Shown: positions 8,435-43,497 of the stretch, piece after piece
Layout of the letters: each line of letters begins with the position of its first letter
How positions within the stretch are numbered: position 1 is the first letter of the stretch
Assembly: GCA_024654525.1 (NCBI GenBank)
Contig: JANLHI010000022.1
Span: 3,931 to 67,930 of the forward strand
Length of the DNA: 64,000 nt
Origin: Patescibacteria group bacterium
Lineage (GTDB): Bacteria; Patescibacteriota; Minisyncoccia; UBA6257; 2-01-FULL-56-20
Direction: 5' to 3'
Notes under the pieces: model-generated
Told to the model about the DNA's origin: nothing
What the model saw: the letters and a program-made list of their open reading frames with translations, nothing else
The model's database searches: none
Made by a program: the position numbers and the translations under genes

Positions 8435-10105
8435 CTACTCCCCCGCTTCGGCAAGTTGAATTTCTCCGAGAATCAATTCGTGATCCACTTTTGGTATCAG
8501 CGGTGTCGGTTGCCCGATGGGGGTGTTGGCGGCAAGCGGCGAATATCTCCAACTCACATCGTCCGTGCCTAGATAGGCATTTAGCCTCTCTGTTACACCT
8601 GGGAAGAATGGTGCGGTAAGACGCCGTAAGGCGTCCGCCACCTCCATGCACACTTTGAGTGTTTCGGCGACGTGCGCCTTGTTGCTCTCGATGTTTCTCC
8701 ATGGCGCGCGGTGCTCGATATAGACGTTTGCCTTCCGTGAGAAGTTGAGAATACTCACCAGCGCTTGCCTCAATTCTCCCTTTTCGATGAACGCCCCCAC
8801 TTCTCTTAACGCAGTGGGTGATGCCATCCAAAGAACAACACTTTCATCGCTTACCGGCACACCACTATTGGGCACGGCACCGAAGTACCGATGCGTCATC
8901 GAAAACGTGCGGTTCCAGAAGTTCCCGAGATTTCCAACCAAGTCGGCATTCACCCGTGCTTCGAAGTCATCCCACCGAAATGTACTGTCTTTGCTTTCCG
9001 GCGAGTTGAGTGTGAGGTAGAACCGGATTGCGTCCGGATCGAATTTTGCAAGCGCATTCGGCAACCAAATGCCGATATTCTTGCTCTTCGAAAGCTTCAC
9101 GCCTCCGAAGTTCAAGAACTCGCTTGAGATGATTCTGTTCGGGAGGTGAAGCCCGAGCGCCATGAGCATCGCCGGCCAAATGATGGTGTGAAACGGAATA
9201 TTATCCTTCCCGTGCACGTAATAGTGCACCGCCTCCGGATTATCCCACCATTCGCGCCACGCTTCGGGAAGCCCTTCGGTTTGAAGGGACGCCCATTCGC
9301 GCGAACAAGACAGGTAGCCAATCACCGCTTCAAACCACACATACATCACCTTCTCGGTGAACCCTTCAACCGGCACCGGAATACCCCATGAGAGGTCCCG
9401 CGTAATGGGCCGGTCTTCGAGTCCCTTGGTAAGCCACGCCTCGGTAATTTTCACCGCGTTTTCCCGCCATCCTTCTTTTGACTTCTCCTTCCACTCCGCA
9501 AGATGTTTTTGAAACGCGGGCAGATGGAGATAAAGGTGTGTCGAAGGTTTCCAGACCGGTGTTGCGCCACACGTTCTGCAATGGGGCGCGATAAGATCAT
9601 GCGGGGTATGAAGATGCCCGCATGTATCACACTGATCACCACGCGCACCTTCCACCCCACACTTTGGATTCGGACATTTTCCTTCAATAAACCGATCAGG
9701 AAGCGTGCGATTACAGGTGTCGCACCGCGCCTGCTGTTCTTCACGCGTAACCATGTGGCCATCCGCATGAAGCTTCGCAAACACTTCTTGTGCTACTCCC
9801 TTGTGGAAGGCACCCATTGTCTTTGAGTACAACGAGTAGCTGAAACCGAGTTTCTTGACGAGCGTTTCCACAATCTCATCGTGGTACTGACCCGCCACTT
9901 CTTCCGGTGCTCTTCCTTCTTTGTCCGCGGTCACAAGAATCGGGGTGCCGTGGCAATCACTACCGGAGACAAAAAGCACATCGTCTCCATTTGCACGGTG
10001 ATACCGCGCGAGCACATCCGCCGGCAGTAATGCCGCGACGTGCCCCAAATGCAGCGAGCCATTGACGTATGGCCATGCCGCCGCAACCAATACCTTTTTT
10101 TTCAT
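8435..10105 (-). CDS. metG: Methionyl-tRNA synthetase
   Basis: HLGH (HIGH-class) and KLSKSK (KMSKS) motifs. Zn-knuckle cysteines. 556 aa. RBS GGAGGAA precedes the ATG. Confidence 0.9.
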   Translation of the reverse strand: MKKKVLVAAAWPYVNGSLHLGHVAALLPADVLARYHRANGDDVLFVSGSDCHGTPILVTADKEGRAPEEVAGQYHDEIVETLVKKLGFSYSLYSKTMGAFHKGVAQEVFAKLHADGHMVTREEQQARCDTCNRTLPDRFIEGKCPNPKCGVEGARGDQCDTCGHLHTPHDLIAPHCRTCGATPVWKPSTHLYLHLPAFQKHLAEWKEKSKEGWRENAVKITEAWLTKGLEDRPITRDLSWGIPVPVEGFTEKVMYVWFEAVIGYLSCSREWASLQTEGLPEAWREWWDNPEAVHYYVHGKDNIPFHTIIWPAMLMALGLHLPNRIISSEFLNFGGVKLSKSKNIGIWLPNALAKFDPDAIRFYLTLNSPESKDSTFRWDDFEARVNADLVGNLGNFWNRTFSMTHRYFGAVPNSGVPVSDESVVLWMASPTALREVGAFIEKGELRQALVSILNFSRKANVYIEHRAPWRNIESNKAHVAETLKVCMEVADALRRLTAPFFPGVTERLNAYLGTDDVSWRYSPLAANTPIGQPTPLIPKVDHELILGEIQLAEAGE

Positions 10106-10207
10106 ACTGATTCCTCCATATTAACTTGTTAAGGTCGTGCTGACGGCACGATTTTTCTTTTAAAGAACGCACACGCGTCCCCATTGAAAAACCGCCGAAG
10201 CAAGGAA

Positions 10208-10278
10208 TGACTGGGATGGGACTTGAACCCACAACCGGGTACTTATGAAGCACCTGCTCTACCTTGAGCTACCCAGTC
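10208..10278 (-). tRNA. tRNA-Met (anticodon CAT), elongator type. CCA not encoded.
   Basis: Manual cloverleaf: 7-bp acceptor with G1-C72, U8, D-stem GCTC/GAGC, anticodon loop TTCATAA, T-loop TTCAAGT, 71 nt. Not initiator-like: 1-72 are paired and there is no GGG/CCC run in the anticodon stem. Confidence 0.85.
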
Positions 10279-10388
10279 ATTGCGAAGCAAACGTATCACA
10301 AAATACCATCGCCAACAAGCGGAATGAGAGAACGCCCAACCCGAAGGTTGAGCGTTCAATGATTCTGAAATCCAAACAAACCACATGT

Positions 10389-11330
10389 CTAGACCGCGAC
10401 TAGATCGGCATTCCGCGTGACCCTTGATGCCCATGGCGCCGGAGCTTCCGGACGGTAGTGCCGGAACTGACCCATCCCGGCACCGATCTCTGTCCCGAGA
10501 CTGTGGAACTGGTACACATCCAATCCTCCTTGCGCGCAAATTTGCTCGAACGCATGGTGATTGGCGGATTCCGCGAAACCCGTCTCGGAGACAGGCGAGA
10601 ATCGTGACAGGCGTAGTCGGACAGGTAAACCGTTCAATAGTCCGACTAATTCTTCGGCATGCGCTTCCGCATCGTTGACGTCCTTGAGCAGGACATAATT
10701 TAGGACAACCCTCGTTCGGAGGGTGTCCGCGTATTCCACCGCGGCGGCGAGCACTTCGCCAATCGGGTATTGCCGTGTGATTGGCATCAGTTCCGTTCGC
10801 AGCTCATCGTTCGGCGCATGGAGCGACACCCGAAGCTGGAGGTTCGTCATGCGAAGACCCACGAGTTTGCGAATGCCGGGAGCAATCCCGACGGTCGAGA
10901 TGACAACCCGCATGTCGGGAGAAATGTGCTCCAACGCACTTTTCACCGCGCTGAAATTCAGCAACGGTTCTCCCATTCCGGTGAAAGAGACCTCGAGGCC
11001 TCGCGCCGGATATTGCGTATCGCCGAGCATCCCGTTGACTTGAAGGATAATCTCGTCGCCAGTCAGATTGCGTACGATTCCCTGCAAACCCGTGGCGCAA
11101 AACGCACACTTCATCGCGCAACCGATTTGGCTGGAGATGCACAGCGAATCGTACTCACGAGTTCTGAACTGGAGGTGAGCGCTTTCGACCGTATGTCCGT
11201 CACGGGTAGCCCAAACGTACTTTGTTACTACGCTACTTTCGGCTTTTGCCTGTAAGGACATTCGGCTCGCCGTATTGTTGATGTTATGCCCGCCGATGGT
11301 TTCCATCGAACGAGCGTTTCGCATGCCCAT
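10389..11330 (-). CDS. RlmN/Cfr-family radical SAM enzyme, N-terminally short. The ORF track start at 11429 is probably an over-extension.
   Basis: CISSQIGCAMKCAFCATG (CxxxCxxC), MGMGEPLLN and SLHAPNDELR match RlmN. GC about 62 %. A candidate start, MGMRNAR at 11330, lies inside inverted repeat A. An alternative start is at 11261. Confidence 0.75.
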   Translation of the reverse strand: MGMRNARSMETIGGHNINNTASRMSLQAKAESSVVTKYVWATRDGHTVESAHLQFRTREYDSLCISSQIGCAMKCAFCATGLQGIVRNLTGDEIILQVNGMLGDTQYPARGLEVSFTGMGEPLLNFSAVKSALEHISPDMRVVISTVGIAPGIRKLVGLRMTNLQLRVSLHAPNDELRTELMPITRQYPIGEVLAAAVEYADTLRTRVVLNYVLLKDVNDAEAHAEELVGLLNGLPVRLRLSRFSPVSETGFAESANHHAFEQICAQGGLDVYQFHSLGTEIGAGMGQFRHYRPEAPAPWASRVTRNADLVAV

Positions 11331-11343
11331 AGCATGCCCGTCT
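11310..11343. repeat. Inverted repeat A (34 bp), a perfect reverse complement of 12741..12774
   Basis: AGACGGGCATGCTATGGGCATGCGAAACGCTCGT on the minus strand. Covers -13 to +21 of the radical SAM start codon. Confidence 0.9.
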
Positions 11344-11674
11344 AGAATACATGTGGTATTCATAATTGTTAACGTACTGCGTACGACTCCCTTTATGAAG
11401 AATGATTTCCTATGGGGTCGCGCGTGCAACCCTCACAGCGTCTTACGACATTCATAATAAAGAGCCGTATAGAAATAATAGGAGTGCTTATAGAAAAGCG
11501 CAAACATGGAAACTGTGTGTATCTCGGATATCCTTTATAAATAGCTCATTACCGAACAAAAAAGCTATGTATAACAGCTGAAATGGCAAGCCGGCTAACC
11601 CATAAACATAGATTAGCCGACAAGGCATTATTTTCGAACATAATTCAGTTCTTCGACAGAGCGGTAACCGCTAT

Positions 11675-12457
11675 TCACAAATGATTTTTCATGCGCCCAA
11701 GCATAAATGCATGATCCCTCGGGTCGTACTTGCGCATGTAATATCGACATCTCAACTCTCTTCTCTCAATTACTCTGGGACGAGCGCATAAGCTGCAAAA
11801 CACGAATGGATACATCCTAAAAAAATCTGCAGATACGCGATCCCGAGAAAGGACTGCCGAATACTGGTGGCAACATTTACTTGCACACTCATCGCACACA
11901 GCTTCGTTTGGAGATAATTTATAGGAGTAATCCAACATTGCATCGCCACATTGTTTGCAACGAATTCCGCCCGTAACAACAACCGCCCGTTTTCCTTCAA
12001 AATCAGTTTCACCAAGAAAAACCAGCTTTCTACCACCATAGCGAGCAGTATTATTAAGATCATCAAGCACTTTTTCATCATCTCTCGTACTCCCGCACAG
12101 AAAGATAATGCGCCCTTGTTGCCTCAATTTCGAAAAAGCTTCTCTAAAAACCTCTTCATTATTGAATGTAGCAGTGGTAATTTTCTTACCATCAGTTATA
12201 ACAGTGCCAATTGAGTTCGAATTCAAACTGCAAAGCTCTAAACTGACTTCGTTAAAAGAACCGCCACAAGGATTCTGAAAAAGAACCCAGAGAGATTTCT
12301 CACTACCAGTTACATTGTTCACACACATCCATGAGATATGCTTAATCGAATCTCCCGGCTTGAGTACCTCAACAACAGCGATAATATCTTCAGCCTCACC
12401 CGTTTCAATCGGCACCAATGTATAAGTCGCCGTTTCTTCATCACAGATAATTTTCAT
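11675..12457 (-). CDS. Hypothetical 260-aa protein with C-terminal CxxC..CxxC zinc ribbon and an Arg/Cys-rich basic tail
   Basis: RBS AAGGA 8 nt before ATG 12457 (MKIICDEE). The ORF track version (start 12652) has an implausible N-terminus. About 40 % GC, unlike its flanks. Confidence 0.5.
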   Translation of the reverse strand: MKIICDEETATYTLVPIETGEAEDIIAVVEVLKPGDSIKHISWMCVNNVTGSEKSLWVLFQNPCGGSFNEVSLELCSLNSNSIGTVITDGKKITTATFNNEEVFREAFSKLRQQGRIIFLCGSTRDDEKVLDDLNNTARYGGRKLVFLGETDFEGKRAVVVTGGIRCKQCGDAMLDYSYKLSPNEAVCDECASKCCHQYSAVLSRDRVSADFFRMYPFVFCSLCARPRVIERRELRCRYYMRKYDPRDHAFMLGRMKNHL

Positions 12458-12576
12458 AACATAATTCCTTTTTGAAATTTTCAATTTGCGCAAACGGTGA
12501 AGAATTGAGTGTAGCAAGCAGAACATCAAATGACAACCAGCTACAAGAGAATAAAACGCCAGACTTAGCAACCCCG

Positions 12577-12604
12577 TTGACACACCAAAAAAAAGTACTA
12601 TTAT
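12577..12604 (+). promoter_or_regulatory. Sigma70-like promoter (TTGACA-16-TATTAT) about 150 nt upstream of metK
   Basis: Sequence match only. Confidence 0.45.
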
Positions 12605-12740
12605 CCCCTTACAATCCTTATTGTACGCACCGCAAGGTGCTGCGTGAATCAACTTTGTTGATTTCGTAGGAAATTATTTCTTTACAAGAAGAGTTGCAAC
12701 GTTTAGTTCATTCAAAACTTATGAGTACTCCAAGTACCCA

Positions 12741-12774
12741 AGACGGGCATGCTATGGGCATGCGAAACGCTCGT
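12741..12774. repeat. Inverted repeat B (34 bp)
   Basis: Identical to the reverse complement of 11310..11343. Covers -13 to +21 of the metK start (ATG 12754). Confidence 0.9.
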
Positions 12775-13860
12775 GTTGTGGCGGTTGAATTCGTCACGCC
12801 CGGGCATCCAGATAAGGTCTGCGATCAAATTGGAGACAGTATCCTTGACGCCGCAATCACTCAAGATCCACTTTCGCGAGTTGCCCTTGAGACAACCGGC
12901 GGACATGGTCTCGTGATGGTAAATGGCGAGATGACTACCAAAGCCGACCTCGATATTGTTAGCATCGTGCAAAGAAAGTATGCCGAAATTGGACATGACC
13001 GTTCCATCGAAGTACTCCTTCGCATCGTTCAGCAGTCTCCGGACATTGCACAGGGAGTTGACGACTGTGCTGCCGCTGGCAAAGACAGCGATGAACAAGG
13101 AGCGGGAGATCAGGGAGTCATGGTGGGTTACGCCATCGGTGGCGAGGCAAACTTCATGCCGCAGGCATATAACCTCGCAAAAGCGCTCACTGACCGACTA
13201 ACGGAAGTGAGAGTTCGAGGGATTCTCCCTCACGTAAAGGCTGACGGCAAAAGCCAGGTCACTTTGGTGAACGGCGTTGTCACTCGCGTGACCATCGCCG
13301 CACATCACAGCGACACAGTCGGGCTTGAACAACTGCGCGCAGATATTCTCAAAGATGTCGTGCAGGTGGTCATCCCCGGAATCAACGGCGACGCTGTCAC
13401 CATCAACGGCACCGGAAAGTTCGTGCAAGGCGGTTTCGAAGCTGACGCGGGAACTACCGGTCGCAAATTGGCAGTGGACAATTATGGTCCTCTGGTTGAA
13501 ATCGGCGGCGGATGCTATTCGGGAAAGGATCCTTCGAAAGTGGATCGGAGTGCGGCATATTTCTGCCGGATGGTGGCAAAGGCCATTGTTGCGGGAGGCC
13601 ACGCGAACGAAGCAGTCGTGAAGGTGGGCTACGCCATCGGCGTCGCAAAACCGACATTCCTGTCGGTGCTGACTCCTCTTGATGGAGAAGCGGCCGAAAA
13701 ATTCGAAGCGCATGTGCTGTCGAAGTTCGATTTTCGGCCCAAAGCCATCATCGAACGTCTCGGGCTCCGGAAACCCGACGGCTGGTGCTATGCCGACACT
13801 GCCGCAGCGGGTCACTACGGGGATGACCGGTTCCCGTGGGAAAAAGTGGTGGAGATCTAA
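12754..13860 (+). CDS. metK: S-adenosylmethionine synthetase
   Basis: GHPDKVCDQIGD, GGGCYSGKDPSKVDRSAAY. GC about 62 %. The ORF track start at 12694 is probably over-extended. MGMRNAR..VEFVTPGHPDK aligns with the MetK N-terminus. Confidence 0.9.
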   Translation: MGMRNARVVAVEFVTPGHPDKVCDQIGDSILDAAITQDPLSRVALETTGGHGLVMVNGEMTTKADLDIVSIVQRKYAEIGHDRSIEVLLRIVQQSPDIAQGVDDCAAAGKDSDEQGAGDQGVMVGYAIGGEANFMPQAYNLAKALTDRLTEVRVRGILPHVKADGKSQVTLVNGVVTRVTIAAHHSDTVGLEQLRADILKDVVQVVIPGINGDAVTINGTGKFVQGGFEADAGTTGRKLAVDNYGPLVEIGGGCYSGKDPSKVDRSAAYFCRMVAKAIVAGGHANEAVVKVGYAIGVAKPTFLSVLTPLDGEAAEKFEAHVLSKFDFRPKAIIERLGLRKPDGWCYADTAAAGHYGDDRFPWEKVVEI

Positions 13861-13900
13861 AGATCTCACAGGGTAGGAAGGGGTACCCAGTATGTTTTTA

Positions 13901-13941
13901 ACAAAAAAGTGCCTTCGCTCACGCGAAGGTACTTTAATTTT
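13901..13941. terminator. Bidirectional intrinsic terminator (CCTTCGC-tcac-GCGAAGG flanked by A- and T-runs)
   Basis: Lies between convergent metK (+) and the NUDIX gene (-). Confidence 0.55.
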
Positions 13942-13968
13942 CCCACTAATTTCTCACATGGGAATGCC

Positions 13969-14448
13969 TCAACTCCTTTTCAAAAATATCTTCAACATCT
14001 CAACCTCTATTCCAATCTGCGAATGAAGCGGGGAAGGAAGCTGGTCTAACGCGAACCATCCTATTTCGTCTATCTTCTCCGGGTCACCGTTCTTAACTTT
14101 TGCAGGGTCAACCAACACCCAATGCATGTTTTTTACCCAATGAGTAGACAATCCGTTGTGCGTGCGGAGTACATTTTTTGTAGTCACATATTCGATTTCA
14201 AGCGGTACCACGCCGTATTCCTCCAGAACCTCGCGTGCCACCGTGTCTTCAAACGTTTCGCCAAATTCCATCGCTCCTCCGCCACAATCCCATACATCCT
14301 GTTCATCGCGACACTTTTTGCTCCGCTTGTGCATAAGTATGCGCCCTTCCGTGTCATAGCACCAAAACACGCAGTTCACACCGATATAATCAACACCGCG
14401 CTTCATATCCCGCTTTTGATATTCCGGAGATTTCTGATCGGGAATCAT
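13969..14448 (-). CDS. NUDIX hydrolase
   Basis: Nudix box GGGAMEFGETFEDTVAREVLEEYG. Confidence 0.85.
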   Translation of the reverse strand: MIPDQKSPEYQKRDMKRGVDYIGVNCVFWCYDTEGRILMHKRSKKCRDEQDVWDCGGGAMEFGETFEDTVAREVLEEYGVVPLEIEYVTTKNVLRTHNGLSTHWVKNMHWVLVDPAKVKNGDPEKIDEIGWFALDQLPSPLHSQIGIEVEMLKIFLKRS

Positions 14449-14450
14449 GG

Positions 14451-15209
14451 CTATTCAACCCTCTTCGACTGATGCTCTTTCAAAAATCCTGAAAATCCCT
14501 TTATCATCTCCAACGGCACCGTGAATACTACTGTGTTTGACTGATCCGAAGAGATATCATTGATGGATTGCAATGTGCGAAGGTGAAGCGCTCCGTCCAC
14601 CGCAGAGAGTATCTTTGCCGCTTCCGCCATGTTTTGAGCCGCGGCAAGCTCCCCTTCTGAATTGATAATAACCGCGCGTTTTTCCCGTTCCGCTTCCGCT
14701 TGTTTCGCAATCGTTCGCTCCATGTCCGCCGGTAAACTTACATCTTTAAGCTCCACATTACTCACTTTAAGTCCCCATTCATCCGTCTCTTTGTCCACGA
14801 TTTCACGAATTCGGTCAGCAAGCTTTTCCCGATTTGCCAGAAGTTCATCTAAACTTACTTCCCCCACGATGTTCCGCATGGTAGTTTGTGCAAATTGAGA
14901 AATTGCATAGTAAAAATCCTGCACTTCAAGAATCGCTTTTTCCGCGGACTGCACACGATAATAAATCACCGCGTTTACCGTGACCGATACATTGTCGCGC
15001 GTGATTGCTTTTTGATCCGGCACATCCACGGCTTTGATACGCATATCCACCTTCTGATAGCTTTGAAACACGGGAATTACGATCCGCCATCCCGGCTCCA
15101 TTACATTACTGAAACGCCCCATCGTAAATTTCAAACCACGTTCATACTGATTCACCTGTCGCAAGCTTGCAATCAGAAGCACAACAATTATTGATATATA
15201 TATCTCCAT
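14451..15209 (-). CDS. SPFH/band-7 (stomatin/HflC-like) membrane protein
   Basis: N-terminal TM helix followed by an SPFH-like region. Start chosen at MEIYISII (15209). The ORF track extends it to 15278. Confidence 0.8.
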   Translation of the reverse strand: MEIYISIIVVLLIASLRQVNQYERGLKFTMGRFSNVMEPGWRIVIPVFQSYQKVDMRIKAVDVPDQKAITRDNVSVTVNAVIYYRVQSAEKAILEVQDFYYAISQFAQTTMRNIVGEVSLDELLANREKLADRIREIVDKETDEWGLKVSNVELKDVSLPADMERTIAKQAEAEREKRAVIINSEGELAAAQNMAEAAKILSAVDGALHLRTLQSINDISSDQSNTVVFTVPLEMIKGFSGFLKEHQSKRVE

Positions 15210-42141: not shown

Positions 42142-43497
42142 TTACCGACTCCGTCGAGAGTGACCACTGAATCCGGGACGAGGAGAAGAATTGCCGAAGC
42201 CACCTCGTGAGGGCGGGCGACGTCCGAAACTCGGACGAGGATATGGTGAAGAAGAAGTGGAGGAATAAGGACGAGCGCTGGTGCGACCATAGTTACTGCG
42301 TGGCGCAGAAGAAGAAAACCGCGGACTGCGATTTCCAAATCTTTGAAACGGTTCGCGTTCCGGCATCGTTTCTGCACGTGCGGGAGGAAGATCTTCGGGA
42401 AGTTTTGAAAGCGGGAGCGTCGAACGAATAAGACGCTCAATACTTCGCACACCTCCTTTTTCATTCGGCGTTGCAAATGATACTGCGTGTCCCACACCAC
42501 CCATGCGTCCCGTGCGCCCGATGCGATGCACATAATCCTCCGCACTTGCGGGTAAATCATAGTTCACCACAAGCGCGATTCCCTTTACATCAATACCGCG
42601 TGCAGCGATATCCGTTGCTACAAGTATTCGATATCTCCCATTTTTAAATCCTTCAAGCGCTTCCTTCCGTTGCATAAGCGAACGATTCGAATGAATCTCG
42701 GCGGCACTATGCCCCAACACGCGCAACCCCGCCGCAATCCGTTTTGCGCTATATTTCATTCTCGCAAAAATCAAAGTTGAACCCTTTCCTTCCGCAAGAA
42801 TTTTCTCAAGAAGGCGCGATTTATCCTGTCGTTGCACAAAGAAAACTTCCTGCGTCACTTTTTCTGCCGCAGTACCTTGCGGTGCGATCTCCACGCGCAC
42901 GGGTAACTTCATATGCGCACGTGCAATACGCACTATGTCTTCCGGCATCGTTGCGGAAAAAAGCAATGTCTGTCGTGCATCGGGCGGGGGCAATACCGAA
43001 AGAATACGTTTCAATTGCGGAGCAAATCCCATGTCAAACATCCTATCCGCCTCGTCGAGTGTAAGAATCTTCACTCCGCTCAACGATACTGTTTTTTGCT
43101 CCAAGTGATCAATAATTCTCCCCGGCGTACCGATAACCACATGCGGGTTTCGGCGAAGCTGTTGTAATTGCCTTCCAATCGCTTCCCCCCCGATAAGCAC
43201 CACAGATTTTATACCCAAAGGAACACCCACTTTCCCAAATGTTTCTTGTACTTGCAACGCCAATTCGCGCGTAGGTACCACAATAAGCCCCTTATCACCG
43301 CGAAGCGCCGCTTGTATCATTGGAATCGCAAATGCCAAGGTTTTTCCTGTTCCCGTTTGTGCAATACCCACCAAATCCTTTCCTTCGATCGAAGAAGGAA
43401 TGGATCGTTCTTGAATAGGCGTAGGTGTAGTAAACCCCGATTTCTCAAGTATATCTAAAATATTCGGCGCAATGCCAAGACTCTGAAAGTTACTCAT
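42142..43497 (-). CDS. DEAD-box ATP-dependent RNA helicase with C-terminal RG/S-rich tail
   Basis: Q-motif/GKT (AQTGTGKTLAF), DEAD (LDEADRM), SAT, HRIGRTGR. Confidence 0.9.
   Translation of the reverse strand: MSNFQSLGIAPNILDILEKSGFTTPTPIQERSIPSSIEGKDLVGIAQTGTGKTLAFAIPMIQAALRGDKGLIVVPTRELALQVQETFGKVGVPLGIKSVVLIGGEAIGRQLQQLRRNPHVVIGTPGRIIDHLEQKTVSLSGVKILTLDEADRMFDMGFAPQLKRILSVLPPPDARQTLLFSATMPEDIVRIARAHMKLPVRVEIAPQGTAAEKVTQEVFFVQRQDKSRLLEKILAEGKGSTLIFARMKYSAKRIAAGLRVLGHSAAEIHSNRSLMQRKEALEGFKNGRYRILVATDIAARGIDVKGIALVVNYDLPASAEDYVHRIGRTGRMGGVGHAVSFATPNEKGGVRSIERLIRSTLPLSKLPEDLPPARAETMPEREPFQRFGNRSPRFSSSAPRSNYGRTSARPYSSTSSSPYPRPSFGRRPPSRGGFGNSSPRPGFSGHSRRSR

What the first reader, a model, noticed from the sequence alone, without database searches (positions are those of the whole stretch)
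11310..12774. Perfect 34-bp inverted repeats covering the translation start sites of divergent metK and an RlmN-like radical SAM gene, bounding a 1.4 kb AT-rich segment
The 34 nt AGACGGGCATGCTATGGGCATGCGAAACGCTCGT occurs twice, in opposite orientation, at 11310..11343 and 12741..12774. Each copy spans about -13 to +21 of a start codon, which is roughly a ribosome footprint. Both SAM synthetase and the SAM-consuming radical SAM enzyme therefore begin with the same 7 residues, MGMRNAR. The element contains two self-complementary GCATGC blocks that can fold into a 6-bp hairpin with the AUG in its loop. The bounded interior (about 40 % GC, versus about 62 % in the flanking genes) contains both upstream regions and one Zn-ribbon gene. 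Possible readings: (i) a shared translational or transcriptional operator that co-regulates SAM synthesis and SAM use, possibly bound by the protein encoded between the repeats; (ii) an invertible segment whose flipping swaps the two promoters and leaders; (iii) a footprint of recombination or gene conversion during acquisition of the GC-rich genes. No target-site duplication flanks the repeats.
Basis: seen in the sequence. Interest (0 to 1): 0.8.

Follow-up and report, generated by a model that had tools for sequence, protein, structure and literature searches.

The report
Duplicated metK leader RNA drives two genes
The perfect inverted repeat is the best-conserved piece of a roughly 200-base control region of the SAM synthetase gene (promoter, folded RNA leader and start-codon hairpin), and a second copy sits in front of a newly inserted radical SAM gene, which exposes a folded metK leader RNA in Patescibacteria that matches no catalogued RNA family.

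Summary
The 34-bp perfect inverted repeat is real (0 expected by chance). It is not an isolated element. It is the tip of two diverged, oppositely oriented copies of the metK 5' control region: a sigma70-like promoter, an ~88-nt four-way-junction leader RNA, and a stem-loop holding the AUG GGC AUG start codons.

The metK copy is native. Orthologous Patescibacteria metK genes carry the same leader and an almost identical 34-mer (one differs by 1 nt), and their proteins share the MGMR.AR N-terminus.

The second copy drives an RlmN-like radical SAM gene. That gene, plus an uncharacterised Cys-rich gene, lies between tRNA-Met and metK, which are adjacent in a relative.

The two leaders are only 52% identical yet keep every helix through compensatory changes (15 of 29 pairs; 97% paired versus 44-55% when slid). 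Both copies therefore appear to be under selection. No Rfam 15 family matches.

Most likely this is an undescribed cis-regulatory leader, possibly a SAM-responsive riboswitch, that co-regulates SAM synthesis and one SAM consumer. The ligand and mechanism are inferred.

I found no support for an invertible switch, a transposon, or binding by the interior protein. Low-frequency inversion across the repeat cannot be excluded without reads.

The parts
12741..12774 (+). 34-mer, metK copy. It forms a stem-loop (outer stem 12743-12748 with 12769-12774; inner stem 12747-12753 with 12757-12763; AUG 12754 in the loop, AUG 12760 in the 3' strand). It encodes DGHAMGMRNAR.
   Evidence: The 34-mer is near-identical in orthologous metK genes (L090 differs by 1 nt, L005 by 2).
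11310..11343 (-). 34-mer, radical SAM side copy (same stem-loop; AUGs at 11330 and 11324).
   Evidence: It continues with TCGATGG (to 11303), as in orthologous metK genes but unlike the window's own metK.
12714..12740 (+). Upstream extension of the repeat (61-nt block, 85%). It includes the first in-frame AUG (12721) and a small hairpin GAGUAC..GUACCC.
11344..11370 (-). Upstream extension on the radical SAM side. It includes AUG 11363 and hairpin GAAUAC..GUAUUC, which carries a compensatory G-C to A-U change relative to metK.
12609..12698 (+). metK leader: four-way-junction RNA (P1 in two parts, P2, P3, short P4).
   Evidence: CM R1 73.7 bits. RNAalifold and covariation. MFE z = -3.4. An nhmmer profile from orthologs only gives E = 9e-6.
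11382..11469 (-). Radical SAM leader: paralogous four-way-junction RNA, 52% identical to the metK copy with all helices kept.
   Evidence: CM R1 73.3 bits. MFE z = -5.6. Detected independently by an HMM built without it, E = 9e-5. Identity matrix.
12577..12604 (+). metK promoter-like site, TTGACA-16-TATTAT.
   Evidence: 11 of 12 matches. The position is conserved in orthologs.
11475..11503 (-). Putative radical SAM promoter, TTGCGC-17-TATTAT. The -35 is weak and was identified by eye through alignment with the metK promoters.
   Evidence: It is below the threshold of the scan.
12721..13860 (+). metK (SAM synthetase). The start is 12721, 12754 or 12760.
   Evidence: Pfam and TIGR01034, 350.9 bits against a cutoff of 309.4. 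N-terminal alignment A2.
10389..11363 (-). RlmN/Cfr-like radical SAM gene fused to the metK 5' block. Possible starts are 11363, 11330, 11324, 11306 and 11261.
11675..12457 (-). Interior gene: an uncharacterised Cys-rich (Zn-binding) protein.
10207..10279 (-). tRNA-Met (CAU), part of the conserved metG-tRNA-Met-metK neighbourhood.
8435..10105 (-). metG (methionyl-tRNA synthetase).
   Evidence: Synteny.

Best explanation
The inverted repeat is the most conserved module of two paralogous copies of the metK 5' control region. One copy is native to metK. The other is fused in front of an RlmN-like radical SAM gene inserted between tRNA-Met and metK. Each copy has a sigma70-like promoter, an ~88-nt four-way-junction leader RNA, a short spacer, and a stem-loop (the 34-mer) that holds the AUG GGC AUG start region.

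Shown: the homology, the conservation of the leader upstream of metK in related Patescibacteria, compensatory base-pair changes in both copies, the absence of any Rfam match, and the synteny.

Inferred: the leader is a cis-acting regulatory RNA, most plausibly a metabolite sensor for SAM or a related compound. It would control translation initiation by modulating access to the start-codon stem-loop. Carrying the same leader would put the SAM-consuming enzyme under the same signal as SAM synthetase. The perfect 34-nt identity would then reflect strong purifying selection on that stem-loop, possibly helped by a short gene-conversion tract. It is not a recombinase site.
For: (1) MetK orthologs at 67-72% identity have N-termini such as MSTTSTLDGHAMGMRTARSMAVEF, and the second M of MGM is invariant. 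Their DNA carries the 34-mer with 1-4 changes.

(2) The radical SAM side copy continues TCGATGG (S-M) like the orthologs, whereas the window's metK has GTTGTGG. It is therefore a metK fragment. Close radical SAM homologs lack this N-terminus.

(3) In L006, metG, tRNA-Met and metK are adjacent and divergent; L093 and L096 also have metG and metK divergent. The window has an extra ~2.3 kb between tRNA-Met and metK.

(4) RNAalifold on six leaders gives P1-P4 plus the start hairpin, with 15 of 36 pairs compensatory. On the aptamer alone, 97.1% of cells pair versus 44-55% when slid, and 15 of 29 pairs change on both sides (0 of 500 shuffles reach this).

(5) The CM hits only metK leaders and the radical SAM copy among 248 kb. 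An HMM built without the radical SAM copy and without the 61-mer still finds it (E = 9e-5).

(6) The aptamers of the two window copies are 52% identical, yet both fold stably (z = -3.4 and -5.6).

(7) A more distant ortholog, L096, shows the same four-way junction directly upstream of metK.

(8) Rfam 15 has no match, even at E <= 10 on the 201-nt leader.

(9) No terminator lies between the aptamer and the start codon, which points to translational control.
Against: - Only six close leaders, five of them independent metK loci, plus one weak distant hit support the structure. P4 shows no covariation.
- The CM does not recognise the metK upstream regions of L092, L093 or L095.
- No ligand, no conserved unpaired pocket and no convincing alternative pairing between aptamer and start stem-loop was identified.
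- Repressing a SAM consumer when SAM is high is not an obvious logic.
- The start codons are unknown. If translation starts at the first AUG (12721 / 11363), the 34-mer lies at +20 to +54 and is not the initiation site.
- The start region of metK (about -8 to +60) is as conserved as its most conserved coding stretches, so part of the 34-mer's conservation could be ordinary 5' coding constraint.
Confidence: 0.7

Rival explanations
1. Invertible DNA segment. Recombination between the two 34-bp repeats flips the 1.4-kb interior and swaps the promoters and leaders of metK and the radical SAM gene. This could be a programmed switch or occasional RecA-mediated inversion.
For: Perfect 34-bp inverted repeats 1397 bp apart flank both promoters. 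From general knowledge, 34 bp of identity exceeds the roughly 25 bp needed for RecA-dependent recombination.
Against: No recombinase domain was found in the interior protein or in the genes tested within about 8 kb. The repeats are the conserved core of longer diverged homologous blocks that also exist, singly, at orthologous metK loci, so their presence needs no inversion system. Swapping two functionally equivalent leaders would change little.
Confidence: 0.07
2. The radical SAM side copy is a non-functional scar of the rearrangement that inserted the gene. The perfect 34 nt reflects a recent gene-conversion tract and has no regulatory meaning.
For: The two window copies share one state absent from all orthologs (CGA instead of CGT at the Arg codon). 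Homology ends abruptly at the junction with radical SAM specific sequence. The deposited (NCBI) protein starts downstream of the repeat.
Against: The aptamer parts are 52% identical, so the duplication is old or foreign. Even so, every helix is preserved by compensatory changes and the radical SAM copy folds better than the metK copy. A neutral relic of that age should have lost its pairing.
Confidence: 0.1
3. DNA-level operator. The two palindromic GCATGC blocks are bound by a repressor, possibly the Cys-rich protein encoded between the repeats, which blocks transcription into both genes.
For: GCATGC-N5-GCATGC resembles a dimer binding site and is invariant in the close metK group. The interior protein has conserved Cys clusters.
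Against: Orthologous loci keep the motif, and none of their called genes resembles the interior protein in size or annotation. The site lies about 140 nt downstream of the promoter. The protein has no recognisable DNA-binding fold. RNA-level pairing explains the conservation, including L092's ACGAGC/GCUCGU variant.
Confidence: 0.05
4. Methionine sensing by translation. The Met-codon-rich N-terminal extension (M..M.M.R) stalls ribosomes when Met-tRNA is scarce. This would throttle both MetK and the fused radical SAM protein. The hairpin would tune this effect, and it could act alongside the leader.
For: All 17 clade members in A2 have 2-6 Met codons in the 4-19 residues that end at the conserved M-R, and most have M-x-M-R. 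Strong SD sites precede the first AUG in L093, L095 and L096, so the extension is probably translated there. The locus is linked to metG and tRNA-Met.
Against: Multiple AUGs may simply be alternative start codons. Nothing here shows stalling. This reading does not explain the covarying four-way junction.
Confidence: 0.15
5. Mobile element. The 1.4-kb segment is an insertion sequence whose terminal inverted repeats are the 34-mers and whose transposase is the interior protein.
Confidence: 0.02

Closest known systems
SAM-I (S-box) riboswitch clan
   Same: A structured 5' leader of metK with a four-helix junction closed by a P1 stem. One motif reused upstream of several SAM or methionine genes in a genome.
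   Different: No match to the SAM-I, SAM-IV or SAM-I/IV covariance models even at E <= 10. The junction has almost no unpaired nucleotides. There is no terminator, so any control would be translational. The ligand is untested.
SAM-III (SMK box) riboswitch of Lactobacillales metK
   Same: Specific to metK, acts on translation, and its regulatory structure reaches into the ribosome-binding region.
   Different: Different size and architecture, and no Rfam hit. Here the start codons sit in a separate, ultra-conserved stem-loop about 55 nt downstream of the junction.
Invertible promoter switches (fimS, Bacteroides invertons)
   Same: Short perfect inverted repeats flank a promoter-bearing segment between divergent genes.
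   Different: No invertase was found nearby. The repeats are coding or leader sequence conserved at orthologous single-copy loci. The interior is 1.4 kb and carries an unrelated gene.
Leader-peptide sensing of aminoacyl-tRNA (trp and his attenuators)
   Same: A cluster of codons for the relevant amino acid (Met) lies at the very start of the message, within RNA secondary structure.
   Different: The Met codons are in frame with the enzyme itself rather than in a separate leader peptide. No terminator or antiterminator pair was seen.

Membership tests
Known SAM-binding riboswitch classes in Rfam 15 (SAM-I, II, III/SMK, IV, V, I/IV, VI, SAM/SAH) | Sequence and structure match to the family covariance model | tested here: not met
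   cmscan of 10000-14500 and of 12590-12790 at E <= 10 gave no riboswitch family at either leader.
Known SAM-binding riboswitch classes in Rfam 15 (SAM-I, II, III/SMK, IV, V, I/IV, VI, SAM/SAH) | Located in the 5' UTR of SAM or methionine metabolism genes | tested here: met
   The motif lies directly upstream of metK in the window, L005, L006, L007/L008 and L090, and upstream of a radical SAM gene in the window.
Riboswitch / structured cis-regulatory leader (generic) | Conserved secondary structure supported by compensatory substitutions | tested here: met
   15 of 29 pairs change on both sides; 97.1% of cells pair versus 44-55% when slid; 0 of 500 shuffles reach this. Only 6 sequences were available.
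Riboswitch / structured cis-regulatory leader (generic) | Direct, selective ligand binding that changes gene expression | not testable with these tools
   Needs in-line probing or ITC and reporter assays.
Invertible DNA switch (inverton) | Inverted repeats flanking a promoter-containing segment | tested here: met
   Repeats at 11310-11343 and 12741-12774; promoter-like sites lie inside.
Invertible DNA switch (inverton) | Site-specific recombinase (invertase) encoded nearby | tested here: not met
   No recombinase domain in the ORFs scanned against Pfam between 2.5 and 19.2 kb; the interior protein also has no hit in PHROGs or NCBIfam.
Invertible DNA switch (inverton) | Both orientations present in the population | not testable with these tools
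   No reads are available. The window is a single consensus contig of a MAG.
Insertion sequence with terminal inverted repeats | Target-site duplication flanking the repeats | tested here: not met
   The outer flanks..CCATCGA and GTTGTGG.., are unrelated.
Insertion sequence with terminal inverted repeats | Recognisable transposase between the repeats | tested here: inconclusive
Insertion sequence with terminal inverted repeats | Multiple copies or occurrence at unrelated sites | tested here: not met
   No further copy in the window, in GTDB species-representative genomes or in IMG/VR. In JGI metagenomes the only true match is a metK ortholog.
RlmN/Cfr radical SAM RNA methyltransferases | CxxxCxxC cluster plus the upstream catalytic Cys (C118 equivalent) | tested here: met
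   SLCISSQIGCAMKCAFC aligns with RlmN sequences.
RlmN/Cfr radical SAM RNA methyltransferases | C-terminal methyl-carrying Cys (E. coli C355, by recall), N-terminal RlmN domain, and a score above the equivalog cutoff | tested here: not met
   Cys is replaced by Met (GAGMGQF). PF21016 is absent. TIGR00048 scores 217.6 against a cutoff of 290.
MetK (methionine adenosyltransferase) | Three S-AdoMet synthetase domains and a score above the equivalog cutoff | tested here: met
   PF00438, PF02772 and PF02773 are present. TIGR01034 scores 350.9 against a cutoff of 309.4.

The most novel reading that the evidence does not exclude
The four-way-junction leader is a new riboswitch class restricted to a clade of Patescibacteria. 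It would sense SAM or a closely related methionine-cycle metabolite and gate translation through the ultra-conserved start-codon stem-loop. In this genome it would have been copied onto a horizontally acquired, mechanistically atypical RlmN-like radical SAM enzyme, forming a two-gene SAM regulon in an organism with very few known regulators.
Probability: 0.35. Interest if true: 0.8.

Novelty: new variant of a known kind. Interest (0 to 1): 0.6.

Why it matters
Patescibacteria (the CPR) make up a large share of bacterial diversity, yet almost nothing is known about how they regulate genes. My literature searches found no paper that holds 'riboswitch', 'metK' and 'Patescibacteria' together, and no mention of a 'SAM-VII' riboswitch.

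A covariation-supported metK leader that matches no Rfam family would be a directly testable candidate for a new metabolite-sensing RNA. Its reuse on a second, SAM-consuming gene is the kind of regulon evidence normally used to assign a ligand.

The case is also a caution. A striking perfect inverted repeat that looks like a recombination site can be the conserved tip of a duplicated regulatory region.

Tried and rejected
- An exact search for the 25-nt core in GTDB species-representative genomes and in IMG/VR found nothing.
- The degenerate 29-nt pattern in JGI metagenomes gave 3 loci. Only L090 is a true metK ortholog. L089 and L091 are chance matches in an unrelated GC-rich sequence.
- The search for related loci with the MetK alignment in genome contigs was swamped by generic metK. 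The best identity was 48% and no clade members were recovered, so that scan was wasted.
- Exact look-ups of the window's MetRS and of the deposited (NCBI) radical SAM protein were not on record.
- CM R1 does not detect the metK upstream regions of L092, L093 or L095 even with filters off. L093 folds into a junction with three helices, but L095 does not, so their resemblance is only by eye and is not counted as evidence.
- I considered a tRNA-Met remnant upstream of the radical SAM promoter, which would have extended the duplicated block. It is not significant: score 23 versus shuffles of 18 +/- 2.7, maximum 30.
- The weak CM/HMM hit at 42835-42885 lies inside a DEAD-box helicase coding region and is a chance match.
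- I looked for an alternative pairing between the aptamer and the start stem-loop. Only a 4-bp GAGU/GCUC possibility emerged, which is not convincing.
- The AF2 model of the interior protein from a single sequence was useless (pLDDT 35). With an alignment the model reached pLDDT 79, but no significant fold match followed. The afdb50 library was unavailable.
- MAFFT misaligned the 3' half when the radical SAM copy was left out. I therefore tested independence with nhmmer instead of a second CM.
Full report
**Observation.** The 34-mer AGACGGGCATGCTATGGGCATGCGAAACGCTCGT is present exactly twice, at 11310-11343 (-) and 12741-12774 (+). No further copy appears at up to 3 mismatches, and none appeared in 100 shuffles. 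The repeat finder extends the arms to 61 nt at 85% (11310-11370 and 12714-12774). An in-register comparison shows the similarity fading upstream and stopping abruptly downstream, where gene-specific sequence begins.

The window averages 45.8% GC. The interior is 40.4%. metG, the radical SAM gene and metK are 53.8, 56.5 and 55.5% (GC3 58-61%), not about 62%. The outer flanks show no target-site duplication.

**Source and genes.** The radical SAM protein, MetK and the interior protein are each 100% identical to proteins of an NCBI MAG labelled 'Patescibacteria group bacterium' (75,091-bp contig). The local gene order is:
- metG, 8435-10105 (-)
- tRNA-Met (CAU), 10207-10279 (-)
- the RlmN-like radical SAM gene, 10389 to about 11330 (-)
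- an uncharacterised Cys-rich gene, 11675-12457 (-)
- metK, from about 12721-12760 to 13860 (+)

**The repeat is the native 5' end of metK.** The closest MetK proteins (67-72% identity; Taylorbacteria and unnamed Patescibacteria) begin with sequences such as MSTTSTLDGHAMGMRTARSMAVEFVTDGHPDK. Across 20 aligned sequences, the second Met of MGM is invariant and the following Arg is nearly so. At the DNA level, the metK starts in L005, L006, L007/L008, L090 and L092 carry the same sequence. L090 differs from the window's 34-mer at one position and L005 at two.

The copy next to the radical SAM gene continues ...GCTCGT TCGATGG (Ser-Met), exactly as the orthologous metK genes do. The window's own metK reads GTTGTGG (Val-Val) at that point. 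The closest radical SAM homologs (42-56% identity, 280-321 aa) have no such N-terminus and start near the window's Met at 11261. The radical SAM side copy is therefore a metK 5' fragment fused to another gene.

**Synteny.** In L006 (GCA_039739115.1), metG (-), tRNA-Met (-) and metK (+) are adjacent. Only 88 nt separate the tRNA from the leader. metG and metK are also divergent in L093 and L096, and metG, tRNA-Met and metK are linked in L005. Relative to this arrangement, the window carries about 2.3 kb of extra DNA between tRNA-Met and the metK promoter. That DNA holds the radical SAM gene with its leader copy, plus the Cys-rich gene.

**The homology covers a whole control region.** Aligning about 320 nt upstream of each start shows that the radical SAM copy is homologous to metK leaders back to the promoter. 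metK has TTGACA-16-TATTAT at 12577-12604 (11 of 12 matches). The radical SAM copy has TTGCGC-17-TATTAT at 11503-11475; I identified this by eye, and its -35 is weak.

Between the promoter and the first AUG, independent MFE folds of L006, L090 and both window copies give the same multi-branched structure. RNAalifold on six leaders predicts:
- a two-part P1
- hairpins P2 and P3
- a 3-bp P4
- a separate hairpin GCAUGCU-AUG-GGCAUGC

Of the 36 predicted pairs, 15 show compensatory changes.

Counting on the ~88-nt junction alone gives 97.1% of cells paired, against 44-55% when partners are slid by 1-3 columns. Fifteen of 29 pairs change on both sides, and 0 of 500 shuffles reach that. P3 is the clearest case: GGGCU/AGCCC, GGACUA/UAGUCC, AUCAAC/GUUGAU and, in the radical SAM copy, GGGUUGC/GCGACCC. 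P4 does not covary.

Both window junctions fold far better than shuffles (z = -3.4 and -5.6).

**Specificity.** A covariance model built from the six sequences hits, in 248 kb of window plus related loci, only the metK leaders and the radical SAM copy (73-92 bits). That result is circular for the radical SAM copy, so I ran a second test. A sequence-only HMM from the five metK junctions, excluding the 61-nt block, finds 11385-11466 (-) as the second-best hit in the window (E = 9e-5). An HMM from the four non-window orthologs finds metK (E = 9e-6) and then the radical SAM copy (E = 0.011). A third weak hit lies inside a DEAD-box helicase gene and is a chance match.

A more distant ortholog, L096 (62% MetK identity), gives a weak CM hit (11.4 bits, E = 0.18) in the correct position and orientation. 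Its MFE fold is the same four-way junction. L092, L093 and L095 are not recognised.

**Age and selection.** The junctions of the two window copies are only 52% identical. That is no closer than the radical SAM copy is to the orthologs (43-55%). The duplication is therefore old, or the copy came from another lineage. Because all helices survive through compensatory substitutions, the radical SAM copy has been under selection for structure and is not a decaying scar.

Against that background, 34 of 34 identity is explained mainly by the extreme conservation of this segment everywhere (94-97% versus L005 and L090). Only one state, CGA instead of CGT, is shared exclusively by the two window copies. 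A short gene-conversion tract is possible but not required.

**What the 34-mer is.** It is a self-contained stem-loop. The outer stem pairs ACGGGC (12743-12748) with GCUCGU (12769-12774). An inner hairpin places AUG 12754 in the loop and AUG 12760 in the 3' strand. L092 carries ACGAGC/GCUCGU, turning a G.U into an A-U.

Fourfold-degenerate positions (GGC, GCT, CGT) are invariant in the close group, although the genes average about 60-70% nucleotide identity elsewhere.

No terminator-like site lies between the junction and the start. Any regulation would therefore act on translation.

**Start codons.** This question remains open. Each copy has three in-frame AUGs. The deposited (NCBI) MetK is 388 aa, which corresponds to a start at TTG 12694, and the deposited radical SAM protein is 305 aa, a start at 11306. 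In the distant orthologs L093, L095 and L096, a strong Shine-Dalgarno site precedes the first AUG, so the Met-rich extension is probably translated there. In L092 only the last AUG is available.

**Known families.** Rfam 15 has no match to either leader, even when only 201 nt are searched at E <= 10. Full-text searches found no paper holding 'riboswitch', 'metK' and 'Patescibacteria' together, and none mentioning 'SAM-VII' with 'riboswitch'; two broader queries turned up nothing on such a leader. By function and context, the nearest analogues are the SAM riboswitches that precede metK in other phyla. Membership in any of those classes was tested and not met.

**The radical SAM protein.** It is RlmN/Cfr-like but atypical:
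- It scores below the TIGR00048 cutoff (217.6 against 290).
- It lacks the RlmN N-terminal domain.
- It has Met in place of the C-terminal catalytic Cys.

Its homologs occur next to metK and metG (L001), next to aminoacyl-tRNA synthetases (L004), or in an NRPS-type cluster (L002).

**Verdict.** The most probable function is co-regulation of SAM synthetase and one SAM-consuming enzyme by an undescribed structured leader. That the leader senses SAM is an inference from context only. Programmed inversion, a transposon, a protein operator and an assembly artefact are all unlikely. Occasional homologous inversion across 34 bp cannot be excluded without reads.

Noticed in passing
window 10389-11330 (-); alignment A1: The RlmN-like protein and its two closest homologs (P0002, P0003) have Met where RlmN/Cfr carry the C-terminal methyl-carrying Cys (GAGMGQF versus G.ACGQL). 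They also lack the RlmN N-terminal domain and score below the RlmN equivalog cutoff. The canonical ping-pong methylation mechanism is therefore unlikely.
   Followed up: partly
L001 4264-9858; L004 8001-14685; L002 2698-11591: Homologs of this short radical SAM family sit in unusual contexts: metK-metG-methyltransferase-rSAM-PfkB between STAND NTPase genes (L001); rSAM next to a LeuRS-like gene, DUF6687, a Rieske protein, MetRS and a sulfotransferase (L004); and an NRPS / B12-radical SAM cluster (L002). The link to metK and metG recurs outside Patescibacteria.
   Followed up: no
alignment A2 (MetK N-termini); window 12721-12762: The N-terminal extensions of this MetK clade are strikingly Met-rich: 2-6 Met in the 4-19 residues that end at the conserved M-R, usually as M-x-M-R (for example MKMNMKMR, MEMTELEGRMRMR). 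This could mean alternative start codons or a Met-tRNA-dependent translational sensor.
   Followed up: partly
L005, L006, L007/L008, L093, L096: Patescibacteria relatives keep a methionine/SAM neighbourhood around metK: metG, tRNA-Met, SAM decarboxylase (AdoMet_dc), homocysteine S-methyltransferase, several methyltransferases, a SAM hydroxide adenosyltransferase-like gene (SAM_HAT_C) and a Cys/Met PLP enzyme. metK is also GC-richer than its locus in L006 and L007 (51-56% versus 43-46%), so its higher GC in the window is not evidence of recent transfer.
   Followed up: partly
window 11675-12457 (-): The interior ORF belongs to a rare, unannotated Cys-rich protein family. It has 50 cluster representatives and conserved CxxC...CxxCxxxCxH...CxxC. 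The AF2 model has pLDDT 79, and there is no significant structural neighbour.
   Followed up: yes
window 12743-12751 and about 12798-12806; L005 metK 5' end: GACGGGCAT (Asp-Gly-His) occurs in the 34-mer and again about 60 nt downstream at the GHPDK motif of orthologs (T-D-G-H-P). The radical SAM side copy has CGGCGGGCAT at a position consistent with homology continuing to this point after a 9-nt deletion. The statistical support is marginal.
   Followed up: no
window 13897-13953: A GC-rich hairpin with T-runs on both strands lies between convergent metK and the NUDIX gene. It drew weak sRNA hits in Rfam and a terminator-like call on the minus strand, and it is probably a terminator.
   Followed up: no
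window 42835-42885 (-): A short match to the conserved CGCAGGAA..TTTTCTTT part of the leader (CM E = 0.45, HMM E = 0.01) lies inside a DEAD-box helicase coding region. I judged it a chance match.
   Followed up: yes
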